From the NCBI GenBank assembly GCA_030527285.1, contig JAUNBC010000001.1, positions 80,111-144,110 on the forward strand: DNA of 64,000 bases. Direction: 5' to 3'. A model generated the notes under the pieces. It was not told where the DNA came from and did no database searches. It saw only the letters and a program-made list of their open reading frames with translations. A program made the translations under genes and the position numbers. This document shows positions 26,581-52,592 of the stretch, in pieces. Each line of letters begins with the position of its first letter. The first letter of the stretch is position 1. Source of the stretch: Bacillota bacterium. GTDB taxonomy: Bacteria; Bacillota; Dehalobacteriia; UBA4068.

Positions 26581-27369
26581 ATGAAAAGGATCGACGCACA
26601 GATAAATAGCAGCGAAGCGAGCGCAGCGCCGGCTAAGGACGCCTATGACGACCGCGACGTTTACTCCTGCCTGATCTGCCATGACAGCGGCTGGGTGATC
26701 GGCGCGGACGGCGCGCGTCCCTGCGGCTGCCGCAGCGCTAAGCTGCGCCGCGAGCGCAGGACAGCCGCCGGATTAACGCCGGCGCTGAGCGGCAAGAGCT
26801 TCGCCGATTTTTCGCTCGCCTATTACAGCGACACGACGCATCCGCAGCTTGAGGTCAGCTATCGCCGCTTAGCGCAGGTGGCCTTGACGGCGGCGCAGGA
26901 CTTTGCCGCGGCGCAGATCGCGGGCAGGACGACGCGCGGCCTGCTGCTGGAGGGCGGCGTGGGCAGCGGCAAGACGCTGCTGGCGGCGGCGATCGCCAAT
27001 CAACTGCTGGATAATGGCGTGGACGCGCTGTTTTTAGTGGTGCCGCAATTCCTCGATCAGCTGCGCTACAGCTATCGCGCCGAGAATGACGGCGAGGACG
27101 AGGCGACGATCATCAAGCGCGCCTATAATGCGCCGGTGCTGATATTGGACGATTTAGGCGCGCATAACTTCAGCCCGTGGGTGCAGAATAAGCTGTTCGC
27201 CATCGTCGATCACCGGCTCAATTACCGCTTGCCCTGCGTGATCACCACCAATCTTGACTTGAACGAGCTGAACGATACCGTGGGCGAGCGCGTGGTATCG
27301 CGCTTTATGGAAATGTGCAATATTTGCAAGCTGGACGTTGACGAAGACATACGCAGGCGGCTCGATTGA
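26581..27369 (+). CDS. DnaC/DnaI-like AAA+ helicase loader
   Basis: CxxC..CxC zinc site, GGVGSGKT, LILDDLG, ITTN. Confidence 0.85.
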   Translation: MKRIDAQINSSEASAAPAKDAYDDRDVYSCLICHDSGWVIGADGARPCGCRSAKLRRERRTAAGLTPALSGKSFADFSLAYYSDTTHPQLEVSYRRLAQVALTAAQDFAAAQIAGRTTRGLLLEGGVGSGKTLLAAAIANQLLDNGVDALFLVVPQFLDQLRYSYRAENDGEDEATIIKRAYNAPVLILDDLGAHNFSPWVQNKLFAIVDHRLNYRLPCVITTNLDLNELNDTVGERVVSRFMEMCNICKLDVDEDIRRRLD

Positions 27370-32053: not shown

Positions 32054-33253
32054 ATGCAAGCGGATTTTTCAGTAGCCGAGGTTGTTGAAGGCTTATACTT
32101 AGATAGTTCCTTTTCCGTATTGGACTGGCGTTCCTGCGTGATGATATTAGTCGCTTTCTTATTATTCTATCTGGCGATCAAGAAGGAGTTTGAGCCGCTG
32201 CTGCTGGTCCCTATCGCCTTTGGTATGATGCTGGCTAATATCCCGCTGGCGCATTTGATGGCGGAGCCGGTTCGTTCTATCGGCGCGGATGGTCTGCCGG
32301 TGGTAGAAAAGATCGGCGGTCTGCTGTGGTATATGTATCAGGGCGATGAGTTGAGTATTTTCCCGCCGCTGATTTTCATGGGTATCGGCGCGATGACCGA
32401 CTTTGGTCCGCTGATCTCCAATGCCAAATCGTTGCTGATCGGCGCTGCGGCGCAGTTGGGCGTATTTATTGCCTTTTGGCTGGCCTTGTTCGTACATGAG
32501 TTTGTGCCTGGCATCGAGTTCACCTCCGCTGAGGCGGCGGCCATCGGTATCATCGGCGGCGCGGACGGGCCGGTCGTTATCTATCTGGCCACCAAGCTGG
32601 CGCCGCATATGCTCGGCCCATTGGCGGTGGCCGCCTACTCCTACATGGCGCTGGTGCCGATCATCCTGCCGCCGGTCGCGCGCGCGCTGACCACGCATAA
32701 AGAGAGAATGATCGTCATGAAACAGCTGCGCCCGGTATCCAAGACTACCAAGATCATCTTCCCGATACTCTCCACCGTGCTGGTATCGCTGATCTTGCCG
32801 GAAGCCGCTCCGCTGGTCGGTATGCTGATGCTCGGTAACCTGTTCCGTGAGTCCGGCGTGGTCGATCGTCTGTCCGAGGTCGCGCAGAACGCTCTGATGA
32901 ATATGCTGACCATTTTCCTCGGAGTTTCCGTCGGCGCTACCGCTTCGGGCGCGGAATTCCTGCAATGGGGCACGATCGCCATATTCGTCCTCGGCTGTTT
33001 CGCCTTTGCCGGCGGCGCCGCGGGCGGCGTGCTGTTCGTCAAGTTCCTCAATCTGTTCTGCAAAGAGAAGACCAATCCGCTGCTCGGCTTGGCTGGCGTA
33101 TCCGCCGTGCCGATGAGCGCCCGCGTCGCGCATAAGATGGGTCAGGAGGAGAACCCCAAGAACTGGCTGATCATGCATGCGATGGGGCCGAACGTGGCCG
33201 GCGTTATCGGTACCTCGGTCGCCGCAGCGATGTTGCTGACGATGTTCGGTTAA
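32054..33253 (+). CDS. mmdB: Na+-translocating decarboxylase beta subunit (OadB family)
   Basis: EPLLLVPI, GAMTDFGP, IGGADGP, NPLLGLAGVSAVPMSAR, HAMGPNVAG. Confidence 0.93.
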   Translation: MQADFSVAEVVEGLYLDSSFSVLDWRSCVMILVAFLLFYLAIKKEFEPLLLVPIAFGMMLANIPLAHLMAEPVRSIGADGLPVVEKIGGLLWYMYQGDELSIFPPLIFMGIGAMTDFGPLISNAKSLLIGAAAQLGVFIAFWLALFVHEFVPGIEFTSAEAAAIGIIGGADGPVVIYLATKLAPHMLGPLAVAAYSYMALVPIILPPVARALTTHKERMIVMKQLRPVSKTTKIIFPILSTVLVSLILPEAAPLVGMLMLGNLFRESGVVDRLSEVAQNALMNMLTIFLGVSVGATASGAEFLQWGTIAIFVLGCFAFAGGAAGGVLFVKFLNLFCKEKTNPLLGLAGVSAVPMSARVAHKMGQEENPKNWLIMHAMGPNVAGVIGTSVAAAMLLTMFG

Positions 33254-33372: not shown

Positions 33373-33454
33373 ACAGCCTCAAGCGTATGCTTGGGGCTGT
33401 CATTTCTATTTAGACAAAGAGTAACGCCCAACCAGCTGCGTTGGGCGTTACTCT
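33371..33454. terminator. Two adjacent hairpins (probable terminators for mmdB and the convergent peptide cluster)
   Basis: TGACAGCCTCAAGC..GCTTGGGGCTGTCA and AGAGTAACGCCCAAC..GTTGGGCGTTACTCT. Confidence 0.65.
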
Positions 33455-33549
33455 CGGCATGTTATATATTTGGAATTATATGTCTGCATCGAAGCTTGTT
33501 GACGTGAGTGGGGGATAATACCACCTCCCGGTGATGAGTTCCGCGGGTC

Positions 33550-33618
33550 TTAGCCCATGATCAGCAAAGCGGCGACGACGATAGCAATAGCTCCATAAAT
33601 AAAGATATACTTTTTCAT
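33550..33618 (-). CDS. 22-aa hydrophobic peptide MKKYIFIYGAIAIVVAALLIMG
   Basis: RBS AAAGGAGGTGAATATC-ATG; paralogue of 33719-33787. Confidence 0.8.
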   Translation of the reverse strand: MKKYIFIYGAIAIVVAALLIMG

Positions 33619-33718
33619 GATATTCACCTCCTTTGATAATTAGCTGTTGTGGTATGTTGCCTGGTTTAATACATTAGGCAGTATTCCGGTAATGATAGCT
33701 GTAAACTAAGCGTTTTGT

Positions 33719-33787
33719 TTAACCCATGAGCAGCAAAGCGGCGACGACGAGGGCGATAGCGCCATAGATAAAGATATACTTTTTCAT
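33719..33787 (-). CDS. 22-aa hydrophobic peptide MKKYIFIYGAIALVVAALLLMG
   Basis: Identical 16-nt RBS leader; differs from the paralogue by 5 synonymous and 2 L/I changes. Confidence 0.8.
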   Translation of the reverse strand: MKKYIFIYGAIALVVAALLLMG

Positions 33788-33859
33788 GATATTCACCTCC
33801 TTTTTCATTTTTCAGCTTGCGGCCGGTTGCGGCCGGTGATAATATATAGCTCGGCTTTT

Positions 33860-33943
33860 TTAGATTATCAGCAGAAGGATGAAGCCTAAGCCGATGGTGA
33901 AGATCAGCGACAGGTCGATGCATATCGGTAACGTGAATTTCAT
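33860..33943 (-). CDS. 27-aa hydrophobic peptide MKFTLPICIDLSLIFTIGLGFILLLII
   Basis: RBS AAGGAGG 7 nt before ATG 33943 (alternative ATG 33949); single TM-like helix; same strand as the paralogue pair. Confidence 0.6.
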   Translation of the reverse strand: MKFTLPICIDLSLIFTIGLGFILLLII

Positions 33944-34165
33944 GTTCATCCCTCCTTTTTTTAATCTCCTTTACTTTGTGTGGTTTTTGCGGTAAAATAT
34001 TAGTAGTTGCGGACTTCGTTTCTTATCTCTTTCTTGATTATATTTTAGCTAAATTATGCCAATCAGTACATAGATAAATAATCGAAAAATTCTATTTTTG
34101 CCTTAAAAAATAAGTTCTTTTGCAATTTTCACATAATTTAATTAATTATGGATAGGAGGGCTAAT

Positions 34166-34711
34166 ATGGAGCTGAATATTGACGAGGTAGACCATCAAAT
34201 ACTGCGTATCTTGCAGGAGGATGGCCGCATCACGATCAAGGAGCTGGCCGAGCAGGTGTCGATGAGCTCTCCGGCGGTAGCCGAGCGGATGCGGCGCTTG
34301 GAGGAGAATGGCGTCATAGAGGGTTATCGCGCCGTGGTCAATCCGAATAAGCTGGGCTTGAGCGTGCACGGTTATTTGATCGCCGACGTGCCGATAAGCA
34401 AGCGCGATCAGTTTTACCGCTATGTATTTGAACAGCGGGCGTTTATATCCGGCGCAACTGTCATGTCCGGCGGCAAGGAGGCGGTATTACAGTTTTGCTG
34501 CCGCGACGCCGCGCAATGGATGAATATACAGAACGACTTTTTTGATATCGCGCAGGTCACCACGCATCTATGCACTTATCCGCCGTTCAAAAACGCTATC
34601 ATTGACCCGCAGGTGGCTGTTGACGACGAGCGCGAGCAATACGCCTTCCTCGAAACCATACGCAAGATCGCCGCGGACGAGCAGAAGCAGAATAATAAGG
34701 GCAAGCGCTGA
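34166..34711 (+). CDS. Lrp/AsnC family transcriptional regulator
   Basis: DEVDHQILRILQEDGR..LAEQVSMS..ERMRRLEENGVIEGY. Confidence 0.9.
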   Translation: MELNIDEVDHQILRILQEDGRITIKELAEQVSMSSPAVAERMRRLEENGVIEGYRAVVNPNKLGLSVHGYLIADVPISKRDQFYRYVFEQRAFISGATVMSGGKEAVLQFCCRDAAQWMNIQNDFFDIAQVTTHLCTYPPFKNAIIDPQVAVDDEREQYAFLETIRKIAADEQKQNNKGKR

Positions 34712-50879: not shown

Positions 50880-50988
50880 CACCTATAGCCGTTTATGTAT
50901 TAGTCGTTTTGCGCTCGGGAAACTATAATTATCTTTAGGCACAGGCATTCATTTGCTGTGTACTAAAATATTTGGAAGGAGGAATTAC

Positions 50989-52479
50989 ATGTCTGAAAAG
51001 AAAGAAGAATGGGGAAGTACAATAGGCTACATTCTGTCCGCGCTCGGCATGGCGATCGGTACAGGTAACGTCTGGCGTTTCCCCAGACAGGTCGTTGGTT
51101 ATGACGGCGGCCCGTTCATGATCGCTTGGTTGGTGGCGTTGTTCGTATGGTCGATCCCGCTGCTGATGGCTGAGGCGATCATCGCCAAGAAGACCCGCCT
51201 GGCTCATACCGGCGGCTTCCGCGATTTCATGGGCAAGAAATATGCCTGGCTGGGCATGACCTGCGTAATGATTCTCGTCGCTATCACCGCTTGCTATTCT
51301 GTGGTTGTTGCTTACTGCGCTAAATATTTTGTTAATTCAATTAGCGGTGCATATGCGGCTCCCATTACGCCGGAGGCGGCGCAGGCCGCCTGGGATGCTT
51401 TCCGCGCCGACCCGGTTCAGGTATTGCTCTTCAATGCCATCACCATGGGTATAGCGGGCGGCGTCGTTTTGCTCGGTATTCAGTCCGGTATCGAGAAGGT
51501 CTGCTCGGTCGTTATCCCCGGCCTGTTCATCATCCTCGTCGGCATGACCATCTATCTGTTGGTCAAATACCCCGGTCCGGAAGGCGCTATCGCTGGTTGG
51601 AGCGCGCTGTTCGAGCCAAACTTTGGCAAACTGGGTAATTCAGAGATCTGGCTGGCAGCCTTCACGCAATCCGCGTGGTCGACGGGCGCCGGCTGGGGCT
51701 TACTGTATATTTACTCAGTATCGGTCAAGGAGAACACCCATGTCGGCAACAATGCGATGGCCGTCGGCGTCGGCGATCAGTTGGGCGCGTTGGTAGCGGC
51801 CACCGTGGTCGTGCCCGCGATCTTTGCCGTTGCCGCTGATCCGCTGGCGATCATGGGCTCCAATAACTTTGGCCTGACCTTCATCTGGCTGACCACCACC
51901 TTCTCGATGATGGACGGCGGCACGGTCCTCTCCTCGCTGTTCTTCCTGGTGCTGTTCGGCGCCGGCGTTACCTCGATGTTCGCTATGGTCGAGGTCGGCG
52001 TGCACAATCTGACGGACTGCGGCTGGAGCCGTAAAAAGGCCGCTGCCGCTGTGATGATCGGCGAGTTTGCCATCGGCATTCCTTCCTGCATCTGGCCCGG
52101 CTTCTGGGCGAATCAGGACTGGGCTACCGGCATGGGCTTGCTGTTCGCCGGCCTGCTCTATGCTATCTGCATTATGAAGCATGGCGCGAACAAGGTGCTC
52201 GACGAATACATCAACGACGAGTATTCGAGCAAGATCTACAAGATCGGCCGTTGGTGGTCTGTGCTTATCAGACTGTTCCCGGTGTTCTTCGTCTTCCTGT
52301 TTGGCTGGTGGACCATTCAGTCCATTGGCTGGTATCCCGGCGAATGGTGGAATCCGTTCCTGGCTGAGTCCACCGGTACGTTCTACGCCTGGGTTATCGT
52401 TTACTGCCTCGCCGGCTTCATTCTGACCAAGCTCTTCATGAAGAAGTATAAGAGCGGTCCGATGACTGTAGAAGAATAG
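50989..52479 (+). CDS. NSS/SNF family Na+-dependent (amino acid) transporter
   Basis: GMAIGTGNVWRFP, GGPF, IPLLMAE, GIEK, GLTF. Confidence 0.92.
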   Translation: MSEKKEEWGSTIGYILSALGMAIGTGNVWRFPRQVVGYDGGPFMIAWLVALFVWSIPLLMAEAIIAKKTRLAHTGGFRDFMGKKYAWLGMTCVMILVAITACYSVVVAYCAKYFVNSISGAYAAPITPEAAQAAWDAFRADPVQVLLFNAITMGIAGGVVLLGIQSGIEKVCSVVIPGLFIILVGMTIYLLVKYPGPEGAIAGWSALFEPNFGKLGNSEIWLAAFTQSAWSTGAGWGLLYIYSVSVKENTHVGNNAMAVGVGDQLGALVAATVVVPAIFAVAADPLAIMGSNNFGLTFIWLTTTFSMMDGGTVLSSLFFLVLFGAGVTSMFAMVEVGVHNLTDCGWSRKKAAAAVMIGEFAIGIPSCIWPGFWANQDWATGMGLLFAGLLYAICIMKHGANKVLDEYINDEYSSKIYKIGRWWSVLIRLFPVFFVFLFGWWTIQSIGWYPGEWWNPFLAESTGTFYAWVIVYCLAGFILTKLFMKKYKSGPMTVEE

Positions 52480-52496: not shown

Positions 52497-52592
52497 ATGT
52501 CAGCATTAGCATGGATCATCATGATCATCATGATTTTCGGCGAGTTAGGCTGGTTCATTTGGTTAGCCTCCGTTGCCGCGAAAGAAAAGTAA
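52497..52592 (+). CDS. 31-aa MetS-like small subunit of NSS transporter
   Basis: RBS AAAGGAGG; MSALAWIIMIIMIFGELGWFIWLASVAAKEK, between NSS stop and terminator. Confidence 0.75.
   Translation: MSALAWIIMIIMIFGELGWFIWLASVAAKEK

What the first reader, a model, noticed from the sequence alone, without database searches (positions are those of the whole stretch)
33550..33787. Tandem paralogous 22-aa membrane micropeptides under purifying selection
Seen: two minus-strand ORFs missed by the ORF track, MKKYIFIYGAIA(L/I)VVAALL(L/I)MG. Each has the identical leader AAAGGAGGTGAATATC, and the ~85-nt spacer between them is unrelated. The 69-nt ORFs differ at 7 positions: 5 synonymous third-base changes and 2 Leu/Ile swaps, with start and stop conserved. 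This pattern strongly suggests translated, selected peptides. Each is a KK N-terminus plus one hydrophobic helix, like a free-standing signal anchor. I do not recognise the family. Inference: membrane-complex regulators, type I toxin-like peptides, or pheromone precursors released by an intramembrane protease.
Basis: partly seen in the sequence, partly recalled or inferred. Interest (0 to 1): 0.8.

Follow-up and report, generated by a model that had tools for sequence, protein, structure and literature searches.

The report
Tandem membrane micropeptide genes, orphan family
Two near-identical 22-codon genes, plus a third small gene beside them, most likely make tiny membrane-embedded peptides of an undescribed family whose function is still unknown.

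Summary
ORF A (33719-33787, minus) and ORF B (33550-33618, minus) differ at 7 of 69 bases: 5 synonymous third-position changes and 2 Leu/Ile swaps. Each has the identical 16-nt leader, and the flanks are unrelated. dN/dS is about 0.10 (p about 0.01).

- A third SD-led hydrophobic ORF (C, 27 aa, 33860-33943) opens the same operon, which ends in a 16-bp terminator.
- A second locus in the same genome (contig C4:6772-7076) carries three tandem copies of an unrelated 24-aa hydrophobic peptide.
- The two loci share homologous upstream (about 125 nt) and downstream (about 120 nt) non-coding flanks.
- The promoter boxes recur, with no mismatch, at the syntenic locus of one related genus, in front of yet another unrelated hydrophobic micropeptide.
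- A divergent Lrp/AsnC-type regulator sits beside the micropeptide gene in three genera.

No Pfam, NCBIfam or Rfam family matches, and no sequence homologue was found anywhere searched. Several defining features of type I toxin-antitoxin and of SHP/Rgg pheromone systems were tested and not met.

Best reading: real, translated, tail-less single-helix membrane peptides that act by dose, under transcriptional control. The function is inferred, not shown. No expression data could be obtained.

The parts
34026..34147 (-). Conserved upstream (promoter/operator) region of the micropeptide operon. Box A AAGAACTT is at 34112-34119, box B CTATGTAC at 34066-34073, and a -10-like TAAAAT at 34042-34047.
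   Evidence: Ungapped identity to the upstream region of the second locus (G000 C4) is 79 of 125, and nhmmer finds only these two sites in the genome. Local alignment scores 48 against shuffles of 12.6+-2.1. The box pattern recurs with 0 mismatches in G002 at the syntenic locus. That this region is the promoter or operator is inferred.
33860..33943 (-). ORF C, first cistron: MKFTLPICIDLSLIFTIGLGFILLLII (27 aa). Its SD GGAGGG is at 33950-33955, 7 nt before the ATG.
   Evidence: It has a strong SD, mean hydropathy 2.18 and hydrophobic moment 0.10. It has no paralogue, so translation is inferred from the SD, its composition and its place in the operon.
33817..33836 (-). Direct repeat CCGGCCGCAA x2 between ORF C and leader A. 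The two self-complementary CGGCCG cores can pair.
   Evidence: Read. It forms a small hairpin in the fold. Its role is unknown.
33788..33803 (-). Leader of ORF A, AAAGGAGGTGAATATC (Shine-Dalgarno plus spacer).
   Evidence: Identical to leader B at 16 of 16 positions.
33719..33787 (-). ORF A, second cistron: MKKYIFIYGAIALVVAALLLMG (22 aa plus TAA).
33635..33718 (-). 84-nt spacer between A and B with no copy elsewhere.
   Evidence: No similarity to the other flanks. No Rfam match reaches a gathering score.
33619..33634 (-). Leader of ORF B, AAAGGAGGTGAATATC.
33550..33618 (-). ORF B, third cistron: MKKYIFIYGAIAIVVAALLIMG (22 aa plus TAA).
33456..33549 (-). 3' untranslated region with an SD-like GAGGTG (33522-33527) not followed by a start codon. 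It is homologous to the 3' region of the second locus.
   Evidence: Local alignment with the locus-2 downstream region scores 28 against shuffles of 9.7+-1.5. Differences fall 12, 11 and 11 by codon position, so there is no coding signature.
33413..33455 (-). Intrinsic terminator of the operon: a 16-bp stem with a 7-nt loop, then TTTGTCT.
   Evidence: Fold. The stem core TAACGCC...GGGCGTTA is shared with the locus-2 terminator.
34148..34711 (+). Divergently transcribed Lrp/AsnC-type regulator (187 aa) with a drifted ligand domain and a C-terminal extension. It is the candidate controller of the operon.
   Evidence: HTH_AsnC-type E 2e-17 and HTH_24 E 1.4e-18. The C-terminal 127 aa give no PF01037 hit even at E up to 10. 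It aligns full-length with Lrp/AsnC proteins. Orthologues in G002 and G009 also have a divergent micropeptide gene beside them. Control of the operon by this protein is inferred from adjacency only.

Best explanation
SHOWN OR STRONGLY SUPPORTED. The two 22-codon ORFs are real protein-coding genes. They are cistrons 2 and 3 of a three-cistron minus-strand operon of about 630 nt. The parts in order are: promoter region near 34042-34119, ORF C (27 aa), ORF A, ORF B, a conserved 3' region, and a terminator near 33413-33455.

Each product is one tail-less hydrophobic helix. It has one or two N-terminal basic residues, followed by 17-22 uncharged residues and no polar C-terminus. Such a peptide should sit across the cytoplasmic membrane with its N-terminus inside.

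The operon is one of two paralogous 'micropeptide cassettes' in this genome. The two share the promoter boxes, the AAAGGAGGTG ribosome-binding core, a 3' region and the terminator core. Their peptide payloads show no detectable similarity.

INFERRED MECHANISM.
- The peptides are made in bulk: the SDs are perfect and the copies are tandemly amplified.
- They insert into the membrane and act there by dose and general physico-chemistry, not by a sequence-specific contact. The most likely effect is toxin- or holin-like perturbation of membrane integrity or energisation.
- Output is set at transcription, from a promoter with a poor -35 and conserved flanking boxes. The adjacent divergent Lrp/AsnC-type regulator probably works this promoter. 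An antisense RNA probably does not.
For: Coding and selection:
- 5 synonymous and 2 Leu/Ile changes, dN/dS 0.10, p about 0.01, leader 16 of 16 identical, flanks unrelated.
- SD-to-ATG spacing is 7-9 nt for all five peptide types.

Rarity:
- Only 11 SD-led smORFs with a strongly hydrophobic 15-aa stretch lie in the 189,078 bases outside long ORFs. Six of the 11 lie in the two tandem clusters.

Membrane character:
- Mean Eisenberg hydrophobicity is 0.45-0.74, hydrophobic moment 0.10-0.23, and uncharged runs are 17-22 residues.

One transcription unit:
- There is a single strong terminator and no terminator between cistrons.

Cassette paralogy:
- Upstream alignment scores 48 against 12.6+-2.1, and downstream 28 against 9.7+-1.5.
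- The box B plus -10 pattern occurs at only these 2 sites in the genome.

Only general properties are conserved:
- Five peptide types (A/B, C, locus 2, G002, G009) show no similarity beyond composition, all z below 1.4.
- The G002 promoter nevertheless matches the box pattern with 0 mismatches.

Dosage:
- Locus-2 copies 1 and 2 are identical across their 75-nt ORFs and almost all of the aligned 115-nt unit, which points to recent amplification.

Regulator link:
- A divergent micropeptide gene lies next to the regulator orthologue in G000, G002 and G009, that is 3 of 6 genomes that have the regulator at E<=1e-20.

Precedent:
- Tandemly repeated short hydrophobic ORFs in one intergenic region were used as a predictor of membrane toxins (PMC2887945, passages read).
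- A review of type I toxins notes the lack of sequence conservation among them (PMC8309996, passages read).
Against: - No expression, ribosome-occupancy or peptide data exist. No sequencing run was listed.
- The selection test rests on 7 substitutions.
- Toxicity and membrane action are untested, and nothing in the sequence shows them.
- Locus 2 has no regulator next to it. G008 and G011 have the regulator without a micropeptide gene. The G009 promoter is not significantly similar. The regulator link therefore rests on adjacency in a few related, non-independent genomes.
- Tandem hydrophobic ORFs need not be toxic. YhzE-2 of B. subtilis was not toxic (PMC2887945).
- A small-residue stripe in A/B (G9, A12, A16; my reading of the sequence) could equally indicate specific helix-helix packing with a partner protein.
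- The genome is a fragmented assembly of 40 contigs, 81.55% complete. Copy numbers in tandem arrays may be mis-assembled.
Confidence: 0.4

Rival explanations
1. Pheromone-like precursors. The free-standing 'signal peptides' are cut in the membrane by a site-2 protease. A C-terminal hydrophobic fragment is released, taken up again and sensed. The receptor here would be the adjacent Lrp/AsnC-type regulator, which then drives both cassettes.
For: - Size (22-27 aa) and build (basic N-terminus, hydrophobic rest) match short pheromone precursors as described in PMC9765709 and PMC4173765 (passages read).
- The peptide gene is divergent from a transcription factor in 3 genera.
- The boxes are shared between two loci, as for a small regulon.
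- Both the peptide and the regulator diverge fast. The regulator is 32% identical between G000 and G002, against 48% for GatD.
- The regulator's ligand domain has fallen out of the PF01037 profile.
- M50 proteases and an Opp-type binding protein are present, though these are not discriminating.
Against: - No RRNPP receptor: TIGR01716 has 0 matches in G000.
- The EcsB/PptB family has 0 matches. The genome is only 81.55% complete.
- No peptide-binding Lrp/AsnC protein is known to me (recalled, not searched).
- Duplicated propeptide genes were found for 0 of 658 Rgg and 0 of 394 ComR systems (PMC9765709), whereas these peptides are tandemly amplified.
- Locus 2 has no regulator beside it.
Confidence: 0.15
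2. Classical type I toxin-antitoxin loci whose antisense or trans-acting RNA antitoxin was not detectable from sequence.
For: - The ORFs are short, hydrophobic and tandemly duplicated in one intergenic region, the very criterion used to find ZorO and others (PMC2887945 and PMC8309996, passages read).
- They are lineage-specific, as reported there for type I toxins.
- A conserved 3' region of about 95 nt between the last stop and the terminator is where antitoxins of Bacillota systems overlap their targets (recalled).
Against: - The repeat covers only SD plus ORF (85 nt) and the flanks are unrelated. In Z3289/Z3290 the similarity extends beyond the coding region (PMC2887945).
- A and B are internal cistrons with fully exposed perfect SDs.
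- The 631-nt transcript is not unusually structured: z -0.83, with 4 of 20 shuffles folding at least as well.
- There is no plus-strand terminator-like site between 33460 and 34300, and only weak 9-of-12 promoter-like sites.
- No Rfam family reaches its gathering score; the best E-value is 4.5.
- The C-termini are hydrophobic, not polar or charged.
Confidence: 0.12
3. Specific accessory or regulatory subunits of membrane protein complexes, for example of the neighbouring methylmalonyl-CoA decarboxylase Na+ pump, acting through helix-helix packing.
For: - The operon lies tail-to-tail with mmdB (OAD_beta, 32054-33253) here and in G002.
- Many characterised bacterial peptides under 50 aa bind a membrane partner (review PMC12648545, passages read).
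- A/B carry a small-residue stripe (G9, A12, A16), and the only substitutions keep size and hydrophobicity.
Against: - The operon is on the opposite strand to the mmd operon, with its own promoter and terminator.
- The paralogous cassette lies between gatD and folD, and the G009 one lies next to an unrelated 247-aa ORF.
- The peptide sequence is not conserved between genera although MmdB is.
- Tandem amplification is unusual for stoichiometric subunits.
- No cytochrome bd (PF01654) is present to need a CydX-type subunit.
Confidence: 0.15
4. The act of translation matters, not the peptide. The ORFs would be leader-like sensors, for example of Ile/Leu/Val-tRNA supply, that control read-through of the terminator into antisense transcription of mmdB.
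For: - The peptides are rich in Ile, Leu, Val and Ala.
- The neighbour is an Lrp-family regulator.
- A leader-peptide attenuator arrangement does occur in this bacterial family: an F/Y-rich 34-aa ORF plus terminator lies upstream of DAHP synthase in G044.
- All four micropeptide units are convergent with the next gene.
Against: - No structural gene follows the terminator on that strand.
- By eye I found no upstream sequence that could pair with the terminator's 5' arm as an antiterminator, and the fold keeps the full terminator stem. The B stop lies about 95 nt before the stem.
- Amino-acid-level conservation (Leu/Ile swaps only) across all 22 codons is more than a few regulatory codons would require.
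- Hydrophobic composition alone explains the Ile/Leu/Val content.
Confidence: 0.05
5. No function. A recent 85-bp duplication or gene-conversion tract happens by chance to look like a conserved ORF.
For: - Only 7 differences are available to judge by.
- No homologue exists anywhere, which is also what a spurious ORF would show.
Against: - p is about 0.01 for the substitution pattern, and 0.00085 for an intact ORF with only conservative changes.
- The copy boundaries coincide exactly with the SD and the stop.
- 3 of the genome's 4 most hydrophobic GGAGG-led smORFs lie here.
- An independent second array has the same build and the same promoter.
- The promoter is conserved in another genus.
Confidence: 0.05

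Closest known systems
Type I toxins found as tandem short hydrophobic ORFs (Ibs/Sib, ShoB/OhsC, ZorO/OrzO; Fozo et al. 2010, PMC2887945; review PMC8309996)
   Same: - Peptides of 19-29 aa with a single hydrophobic helix.
- Tandemly duplicated within one intergenic region.
- Lineage-specific, with no sequence conservation between families.
- Missed by gene callers.
   Different: - Several cistrons share one mRNA, each with a perfect exposed SD.
- The repeat is limited to SD plus ORF.
- No antisense RNA gene, long structured 5' UTR or polar C-terminal cluster was found.
- Control appears to be transcriptional, through a conserved promoter next to a protein regulator.
YhzE family of Bacillus subtilis (28-aa hydrophobic proteins, tandemly duplicated; PMC2887945, passages read)
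   Same: - Small hydrophobic ORFs of Bacillota in tandem copies.
- Function unknown.
- Not demonstrably toxic.
   Different: - The paper describes YhzE proteins as widespread in Firmicutes, with Gly- and aromatic-rich variable termini.
- The peptides here are orphans without such termini.
- No similarity was tested directly, because I held no YhzE sequence.
SHP/XIP precursors of Rgg/ComR systems, and enterococcal pheromones derived from lipoprotein signal peptides (PMC9765709, PMC4173765)
   Same: - Very short precursors that look like a signal peptide without cargo: basic N-terminus, hydrophobic rest.
- The gene lies next to, and is often divergent from, a transcription factor.
- Sequence turns over fast.
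   Different: - The neighbouring regulator is Lrp/AsnC, not RRNPP.
- No Rgg C-terminal domain or EcsB-type exporter family was found.
- The copies are tandemly amplified.
- There is no lipobox Cys, since the ORFs stop after Gly.
Stand-alone small membrane proteins such as E. coli YohP (27 aa; review PMC12648545)
   Same: - About 22-27 aa, one hydrophobic helix.
- Own transcription unit.
- Stress- or phase-regulated, with a poorly defined function.
   Different: - YohP is a single-copy gene (recalled).
- Here there are six cistrons in two cassettes with a shared dedicated promoter.
Phenol-soluble modulin alpha operon of staphylococci (recalled; one related paper seen only in the search listing)
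   Same: Several peptides of about 20 aa are encoded head-to-tail in one operon, each with its own SD. No dedicated immunity or modification genes lie beside them.
   Different: PSMs are amphipathic surfactant helices. These peptides are uniformly hydrophobic, with hydrophobic moment 0.10-0.23, so they are membrane-spanning rather than surface-active.

Membership tests
Type I toxin-antitoxin system | Toxin under 70 aa with a predicted transmembrane helix | tested here: met
   The peptides are 22-27 aa, with uncharged runs of 17-22 residues and mean hydrophobicity 0.45-0.74.
Type I toxin-antitoxin system | [quoted passage not shown] | tested here: not met
   A and B end in LLMG or LIMG, C ends in LLLII, and the locus-2 peptides end in AINL.
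Type I toxin-antitoxin system | Antisense or adjacent small-RNA antitoxin gene, with repeat similarity extending beyond the ORF | tested here: not met
   The flanks of A and B are unrelated. No plus-strand terminator-like site overlaps the operon, and promoter-like sites reach only 9 of 12. No Rfam family reaches its gathering score. A trans-acting RNA elsewhere cannot be excluded without RNA data.
Type I toxin-antitoxin system | Toxin SD sequestered by mRNA structure | tested here: inconclusive
   The whole-transcript fold has z -0.83, so it is not unusually structured. A and B are internal cistrons. I did not compute local SD accessibility.
Type I toxin-antitoxin system | Toxicity on over-expression | not testable with these tools
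   This needs an induction experiment.
SHP/XIP-Rgg/ComR (RRNPP) quorum sensing | Adjacent RRNPP (TPR-type) receptor | tested here: not met
   The adjacent gene is an HTH_AsnC-type regulator. TIGR01716 has 0 matches in G000, which is 81.55% complete.
SHP/XIP-Rgg/ComR (RRNPP) quorum sensing | Short precursor with a basic N-terminus and hydrophobic remainder | tested here: met
   The sequences begin MKK, MK or MRR, followed by hydrophobic residues.
SHP/XIP-Rgg/ComR (RRNPP) quorum sensing | PptAB/EcsAB-type exporter, Eep-type protease and Opp importer | tested here: inconclusive
   EcsB (PF05975) has 0 matches. Peptidase_M50 is present, as is SBP_bac_5. The latter two are near-universal, and the genome is incomplete.
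Pheromones derived from lipoprotein signal peptides | Lipobox cysteine followed by a mature lipoprotein | tested here: not met
   The ORFs stop directly after Gly22. The LPAM_1 match is only sub-threshold: E 0.04-0.06, 14.3-14.7 bits against a cut-off of 20.
Phenol-soluble modulins and leaderless amphipathic peptides | Amphipathic helix (high hydrophobic moment) | tested here: not met
   The hydrophobic moment is 0.10-0.23 at 100 degrees.
Attenuator leader peptides | A terminator followed by the regulated structural gene on the same strand | tested here: not met
   Beyond the terminator lies only the antisense of mmdB. The same holds at locus 2, where folD is convergent.
Small subunits encoded in their partner's operon (OAD gamma/Mmd type, CydX type) | Co-transcription with the partner complex | tested here: not met
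   The operon is on the opposite strand to the mmd operon and has its own terminator. No cytochrome bd is present.
Any curated protein or RNA family (Pfam-A, NCBIfam, Rfam 15) | A match at the curated threshold | tested here: not met
   Searches scanned 8 micropeptide ORFs: A, B, C, G009, G002 and the 31-aa ORF downstream of the SNF transporter, plus two locus-2 copies against NCBIfam only. None reached a cut-off.
Lrp/AsnC (FFRP) regulators, for the neighbouring gene 34148-34711 | N-terminal AsnC-type HTH plus a C-terminal RAM ligand domain | tested here: inconclusive
   The HTH is clear: E 2e-17, and the PDB best match 1ri7 has E 1.4e-13 over residues 3-88. PF01037 is not detected in G000, and is sub-threshold in G009 (22.3 bits) and G002 (17.8 bits) against a cut-off of 25. 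The protein does align full-length with PF01037-bearing proteins. I did not predict its structure.

The most novel reading that the evidence does not exclude
A previously undescribed kind of self-contained 'micropeptide cassette'. It has a dedicated conserved promoter/operator. This is followed by tandem, perfectly SD-led ORFs for tail-less single-helix peptides, whose sequence turns over completely. A conserved 3' region and terminator close the unit. The cassette is duplicated within the genome and has been held beside a fast-evolving Lrp/AsnC-type regulator across genera.

In the boldest form, one of two things is true:
- The regulator is the receptor for processed peptide fragments. That would be peptide signalling with a non-RRNPP receptor.
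- The pair is a protein-repressed, RNA-free counterpart of type I toxin-antitoxin modules.
Probability: 0.18. Interest if true: 0.8.

Novelty: new variant of a known kind. Interest (0 to 1): 0.55.

Why it matters
Genes of 22 codons are invisible to standard annotation. Few orphan ones can be supported from sequence alone. This case has several independent signals:
- a within-genome paralogue pair with a low dN/dS;
- a second array built the same way;
- promoter conservation across genera.

If the mechanism holds, it adds a transcriptionally controlled, polycistronic and tandemly amplified form of membrane micropeptide. This form differs from the RNA-controlled type I toxins and from RRNPP pheromones. 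It also suggests a target regulon for an unusual Lrp/AsnC regulator. The conserved flanks with fully replaceable hydrophobic payloads make a small natural test of how little sequence a membrane peptide needs. The organism is an uncultured, poorly sampled lineage, so heterologous expression would have to come first.

Tried and rejected
SEARCHES FOR HOMOLOGUES, ALL NEGATIVE
- Peptide A as a protein query: matches in 1 of 31 genomes of the family, G000 only.
- Degenerate 12-residue pattern with up to 3 mismatches: 1 of 51 genomes of the order, G000 only.
- Whole 751-nt locus as DNA: 3 of 41 relatives including G000. The two foreign hits of 35-37 nt are ribosome-binding-site look-alikes inside or before unrelated genes.
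- Nine-residue pattern over all species representatives: 1 hit, out of frame at the start of a 299-aa ORF.
- Viral contigs: 0 hits for a peptide pattern and 0 for the promoter pattern.
- Locus-2 peptide: 1 of 51 genomes at a meaningful E-value, G000 only. A hit in G029 has E 0.23.
- G002 peptide in its two congeners: 0 of 2.
- Full-text search for two peptide strings: 0 papers.
- tblastn of the peptides on the own genome. The printed output was cut, so only query A was visible. It showed two full-length hits and nothing else longer than about 10 residues.
- blastn of both whole cassettes found no further copies.

CLOSE RELATIVES FOR A PROPER dN/dS
- The metagenome scan with the regulator gave 26 loci. 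The longest match, over residues 11-155, is 35% identical; higher identities of up to 54% cover only the N-terminal HTH. So there is no close relative.
- The 5.8-billion-protein search gave 13 proteins at E<=1e-10. The only near-full-length match (97% coverage, 100% identity) is the window's own protein. Among the others, the longest matches (76-80% coverage) are 32-35% identical, and identities up to 55% cover only 36-42% of the query.
- The gatD-side loci of 13 relatives hold no micropeptide array.

EXPRESSION
- No sequencing run, DNA or RNA, was listed for the stretch. No RNA holder was listed.

TOOLS THAT COULD NOT TAKE THE PEPTIDES
- The search for homologous proteins needs at least 40 aa.
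- Structure, complex and atlas tools need at least 30 aa, so they were not tried.

IDEAS DROPPED
- A fourth trailing ORF after the SD-like GAGGTG. There is no start codon, and differences fall 12/11/11 by codon position.
- An internal promoter-like site (TCAACA-16-TATAAT, 33502-33475) that would drive a small 3' RNA. By my reading of the alignment it is not conserved at the homologous place in locus 2.
- Sigma-54, sporulation-sigma, CodY-box or Spo0A-box readings of the conserved boxes. I compared them with recalled consensus sequences only and found no consistent fit, so I do not claim any.
- The three 3-mismatch promoter-pattern hits in G041, G044 and G025. The reversed-pattern control gave 2 hits in the same 51 genomes, so these are not counted.

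NOT SEEN
- Supplementary Table S7 of PMC2887945, the list of tandem-repeat candidates, which could hold related cases.
Full report
THE OBSERVATION

On the minus strand, ORF A (33719-33787) encodes MKKYIFIYGAIALVVAALLLMG. ORF B (33550-33618) encodes MKKYIFIYGAIAIVVAALLIMG. Both run from ATG to TAA.
- They differ at 7 of 69 bases. Five are synonymous third-position changes. Two are CTC>ATC changes (Leu13Ile, Leu20Ile).
- The 16 bases before each ATG, AAAGGAGGTGAATATC, are identical. This places a perfect GGAGG 8 nt upstream of the start.
- Outside these 85 bases the copies are unrelated. Only 12 of 44 upstream and 14 of 60 downstream positions match. Gapped local alignments of the flanks score no better than shuffles (9 against 8.3-8.6).
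- blastn of the locus on its own genome finds the same 85-nt unit at 91.8% identity and nothing else.

IS IT MORE THAN CHANCE?

- Nei-Gojobori counting gives 15.3 synonymous and 47.7 non-synonymous sites, dS 0.43, dN 0.043 and a ratio of 0.10. Fisher p is 0.007 and binomial p is 0.011.
- Of 200,000 simulated sets of seven random substitutions, 0.9% left the frame intact with at most two residue changes. Only 0.085% did so with both changes conservative.
- At the synonymous divergence seen, neutral flanks should still be about two-thirds identical. They are not, and the leader has not changed at all.
- So either only SD plus ORF was copied, or everything around it has been replaced. Both readings point to the coding unit as the thing that is kept.
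- Genome-wide in G000 (1.63 Mb, 58% G+C, 40 contigs, 81.55% complete), 116 ORFs of 15-45 aa have GGAGG plus ATG. Only 4 of them have mean hydropathy of 1.5 or more, and 3 of those 4 are at this locus.

The test rests on seven substitutions. It is significant, not overwhelming.

WHAT ELSE IS AT THE LOCUS

- A third ORF, C (33860-33943), encodes MKFTLPICIDLSLIFTIGLGFILLLII. It has GGAGGG 7 nt before its ATG and lies upstream on the same strand.
- No terminator-like site lies between C, A and B. About 95 nt after B's stop comes a 16-bp hairpin followed by a T-rich run. C, A and B therefore read as one operon of about 630 nt.
- Its predicted fold is not unusually stable: z is -0.83, and 4 of 20 shuffles fold at least as well.
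- No Rfam family reaches its gathering score; the best E-value is 4.5.
- The operon is tail-to-tail with a plus-strand methylmalonyl-CoA decarboxylase-type operon. That operon encodes a glyoxalase-fold epimerase-like protein, a carboxyltransferase, an OAD_gamma protein, a biotin carrier and OAD_beta at 32054-33253.
- It is head-to-head with an Lrp/AsnC-type regulator at 34148-34711, which is followed by a DinG-like helicase.

A SECOND LOCUS IN THE SAME GENOME

A looser genome-wide scan looked for SD-led ORFs of 15-50 aa with a strongly hydrophobic 15-residue stretch, lying outside ORFs of 150 aa or more. It lists 11 candidates in 189,078 bases. Six of them form two clusters: this locus, and contig C4:6772-7076 on the plus strand, between gatD-like and folD-like genes (identified by eye).
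- At C4, three head-to-tail genes encode MRRLSFWTSVIVFATTFIILAINL (twice, with identical 75-nt ORFs and units spaced 115 nt apart) and MRSLSFLTSVIIFATTFIILAINL.
- The third copy differs at six bases, giving R3S, W7L and V12I plus silent changes.
- All three share one leader, which contains AAAGGAGGTG.

The two loci are paralogous in their non-coding parts.
- Upstream, 79 of 125 positions are identical without gaps. The local alignment scores 48 against 12.6+-2.1 for shuffles.
- Downstream, the local score is 28 against 9.7+-1.5. The shared features are an SD-like GAGGTG with no start codon behind it and a terminator stem core TAACGCC...GGGCGTTA.
- Differences in that 3' stretch fall evenly over codon positions (12, 11, 11), so it does not look coding.
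- The motif box B plus -10 occurs only at these two places in the genome.
- In contrast, the peptides of the two loci show no similarity beyond composition, with all cross-type z below 1.4.

RELATIVES

No sequence homologue of peptide A/B or of the locus-2 peptide was found:
- in the family: 1 of 31 genomes, G000 itself;
- in the order: 1 of 51;
- among all species representatives by a nine-residue pattern: one out-of-frame chance hit;
- in viral contigs: 0.

The lineage is thinly sampled.
- G000 is alone in its genus.
- The regulator's only near-full-length match among 5.8 billion proteins (97% coverage, 100% identity) is the window's own protein. The other hits that cover most of its length are 32-35% identical, and those with higher identity cover only the N-terminal part.
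- The metagenome scan found nothing close.

The locus itself, however, is recognisable in a related genus. In G002 the same neighbours flank the site, with OAD_beta on one side and the regulator orthologue on the other. An SD-led 28-aa ORF, MTLFCAAWTVAFFAFSVFAAYCKVHGQH, lies there, followed by terminators.
- Its upstream region carries AAGAACTT, 38 nt, CTATGTAC, 18 nt, TATAAT. These are the same boxes at the same spacing, with no mismatch.
- Across 51 genomes, only G000 (twice) and G002 match this pattern exactly.
- Three 3-mismatch hits are not counted, because the reversed-pattern control gave two hits.
- The whole G002 upstream region is more similar to both G000 loci than shuffles are (z 3.3 and 5.2).

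In G009, the best regulator orthologue (40% identity) has a divergent SD-led 29-aa ORF, MSKDMISTVLLTVLLVAVAIIYLASRYLG, with its own terminator. Its promoter is not significantly similar.

The other regulator-bearing genomes differ:
- G008 has a tRNA-Arg gene at that place.
- G011 has none.
- G041 has a co-directional 39-aa membrane ORF.

The regulator subfamily was found in 6 of 73 genomes sampled from the class, all in one family. These genomes are kin, so the adjacency amounts to one or two evolutionary events, not three independent ones.

WHAT THE PEPTIDES ARE

- All have one or two basic residues at the N-terminus (C has one Lys and one Asp), then 17-22 uncharged residues, and no polar tail.
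- Mean Eisenberg hydrophobicity is 0.45-0.74 and hydrophobic moment is 0.10-0.23.
- That is the signature of a membrane-spanning helix, not of an amphipathic surface-active one.
- By the positive-inside rule (established knowledge), the N-terminus should stay in the cytoplasm.
- The genome encodes Spo0A and no LpxC was found. The host is therefore probably a single-membrane, Clostridia-like Bacillota. This is an inference from two markers in an incomplete genome.

MECHANISM

Shown or strongly supported:
- The ORFs are coding genes under constraint.
- They lie in one operon.
- Two paralogous cassettes share a dedicated promoter.
- Between loci and genera, only size, hydrophobicity, SD and promoter are conserved.

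Inferred:
- Sequence is free while general properties are fixed, and copies are amplified (the ORFs of locus-2 copies 1 and 2 are identical). The peptides therefore most likely act in the membrane by dose, as toxin-, holin- or YohP-like small membrane proteins do.
- Expression is probably gated at the promoter. The -35 is poor, and the conserved boxes look like protein-binding sites. The adjacent regulator is the obvious candidate.
- I put 0.4 on this whole chain, and about 0.9 on its first link, that these are real translated membrane micropeptide genes.

COMPARISON WITH KNOWN SYSTEMS

Type I toxin-antitoxin loci.
- Tandem short hydrophobic ORFs in one intergenic region are exactly what Fozo et al. 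used to discover ZorO (PMC2887945 and PMC8309996, passages read).
- Defining features fail here, however. There is no polar or charged C-terminus. The similarity does not extend beyond the ORF. No antisense gene is visible. The SDs are exposed on internal cistrons, and the mRNA is not unusually structured.

SHP/XIP-type and enterococcal pheromone precursors.
- They have the same 'signal peptide without cargo' build and sit beside their regulator (PMC9765709 and PMC4173765, passages read).
- The neighbour here is Lrp/AsnC, not RRNPP.
- No Rgg C-terminal domain or EcsB family was found.
- Duplicated propeptide genes were not seen for Rgg or ComR (0 of 658 and 0 of 394).

Other comparisons also fail:
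- PSM-like amphipathicity.
- Attenuator leader peptides, since no downstream gene follows.
- Operon-encoded small subunits, since the strand is opposite and the promoter and terminator are separate.
- Pfam and NCBIfam give nothing at threshold for any of the eight micropeptide ORFs scanned.

THE REGULATOR

- Its N-terminal AsnC-type HTH is clear (E 2e-17). The closest solved chain is 1ri7, with E 1.4e-13 over residues 3-88.
- The C-terminal 127 residues give no PF01037 hit. The G009 and G002 orthologues are below the cut-off.
- The protein still aligns end to end with PF01037-bearing proteins and carries an extension of about 35 residues.
- It is 32% identical between G000 and G002, against 48% for GatD.
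- A fast-evolving ligand domain beside a fast-evolving peptide keeps the pheromone-receptor reading alive, but it is no more than a lead.

LIMITS

- There are no RNA or peptide data. No run was listed.
- No close relatives are available.
- Five tools could not be used on the peptides. 
- The assembly is fragmented, and arrays may be collapsed or expanded.
- The supplementary candidate list of PMC2887945 was not seen.
- Consensus motifs for sigma factors, CodY and Spo0A were recalled only, and I base nothing on them.

VERDICT

This is a real, orphan set of tandem membrane-micropeptide genes. They are organised as two paralogous cassettes with a dedicated promoter, next to an atypical Lrp/AsnC regulator. 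It is a new variant of a known kind (small hydrophobic tandem ORFs), and several defining features of type I toxin-antitoxin and RRNPP pheromone systems were tested and not met. The function is inferred, not shown.

Noticed in passing
G000 contig C4:6573-7215 (outside the window; held as L048, L057): A second micropeptide cassette: three tandem 24-aa hydrophobic ORFs, two with identical ORFs. Its upstream and downstream flanks are homologous to those of the window locus. It lies between gatD-like and folD-like genes, and none of 13 relatives has it at that place.
   Followed up: yes
window 52497-52592 (+): A 31-aa SD-led hydrophobic ORF (MSALAWIIMIIMIFGELGWFIWLASVAAKEK) lies 17 nt after a sodium:neurotransmitter-symporter-family transporter (50953-52479) and is followed by a terminator. 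It looks like the small subunit known for some transporters of this family (recalled). No NCBIfam match was found.
   Followed up: partly
G000 contig C5:23575-23661 (-): Another stand-alone SD-led 28-aa ORF (MESLGILIGMAICGIILFVLTRPAKARH), with a hydrophobic helix and a basic C-terminal tail. This build is closer to that described for type I toxins than the build of the peptides in the finding.
   Followed up: no
L047 1612-1716 (+), genome G044: An F/Y-rich 34-aa ORF (MRNHLFTSEYFYFNFAGLFASKVYCGFAEKVLA) with an SD, then a terminator hairpin, lies upstream of a DAHP synthase (PF00793 E 2.6e-77). This arrangement looks like an aromatic-amino-acid leader-peptide attenuator. It was found by a 3-mismatch chance hit of the promoter pattern.
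   Followed up: partly
window 33817-33836 (-): A direct repeat CCGGCCGCAA x2 between ORF C and the leader of ORF A. The two palindromic CGGCCG cores can form a 6-bp hairpin. Its role is unknown; it may be an RNA processing or stability element.
   Followed up: no
L014 1222-1341 (+), genome G041: A 39-aa ORF with a C-terminal transmembrane helix and a strong SD lies directly upstream of, and co-directional with, the regulator orthologue. This is a different arrangement of 'small membrane protein plus this regulator'.
   Followed up: no
L046 1501-1700 (+), genome G041 (about 2.7 kb from the regulator orthologue): A promoter-pattern match with 3 mismatches, followed by a short unit of about 100 nt that ends in a terminator and holds no convincing ORF. 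It may be a small RNA or a chance match.
   Followed up: no
window 26581-27369 (+): An IstB-like (IS21-type) ATPase ORF (PF01695, E 3.5e-16) lies about 6 kb from the locus. No link to the micropeptide operon was seen.
   Followed up: no
window 34148-34711 (+): The Lrp/AsnC-type regulator has no detectable PF01037 ligand domain and carries a C-terminal extension of about 35 residues. Among 5.8 billion proteins its only near-full-length match is the window's own protein; the other long matches are 32-35% identical.
   Followed up: partly
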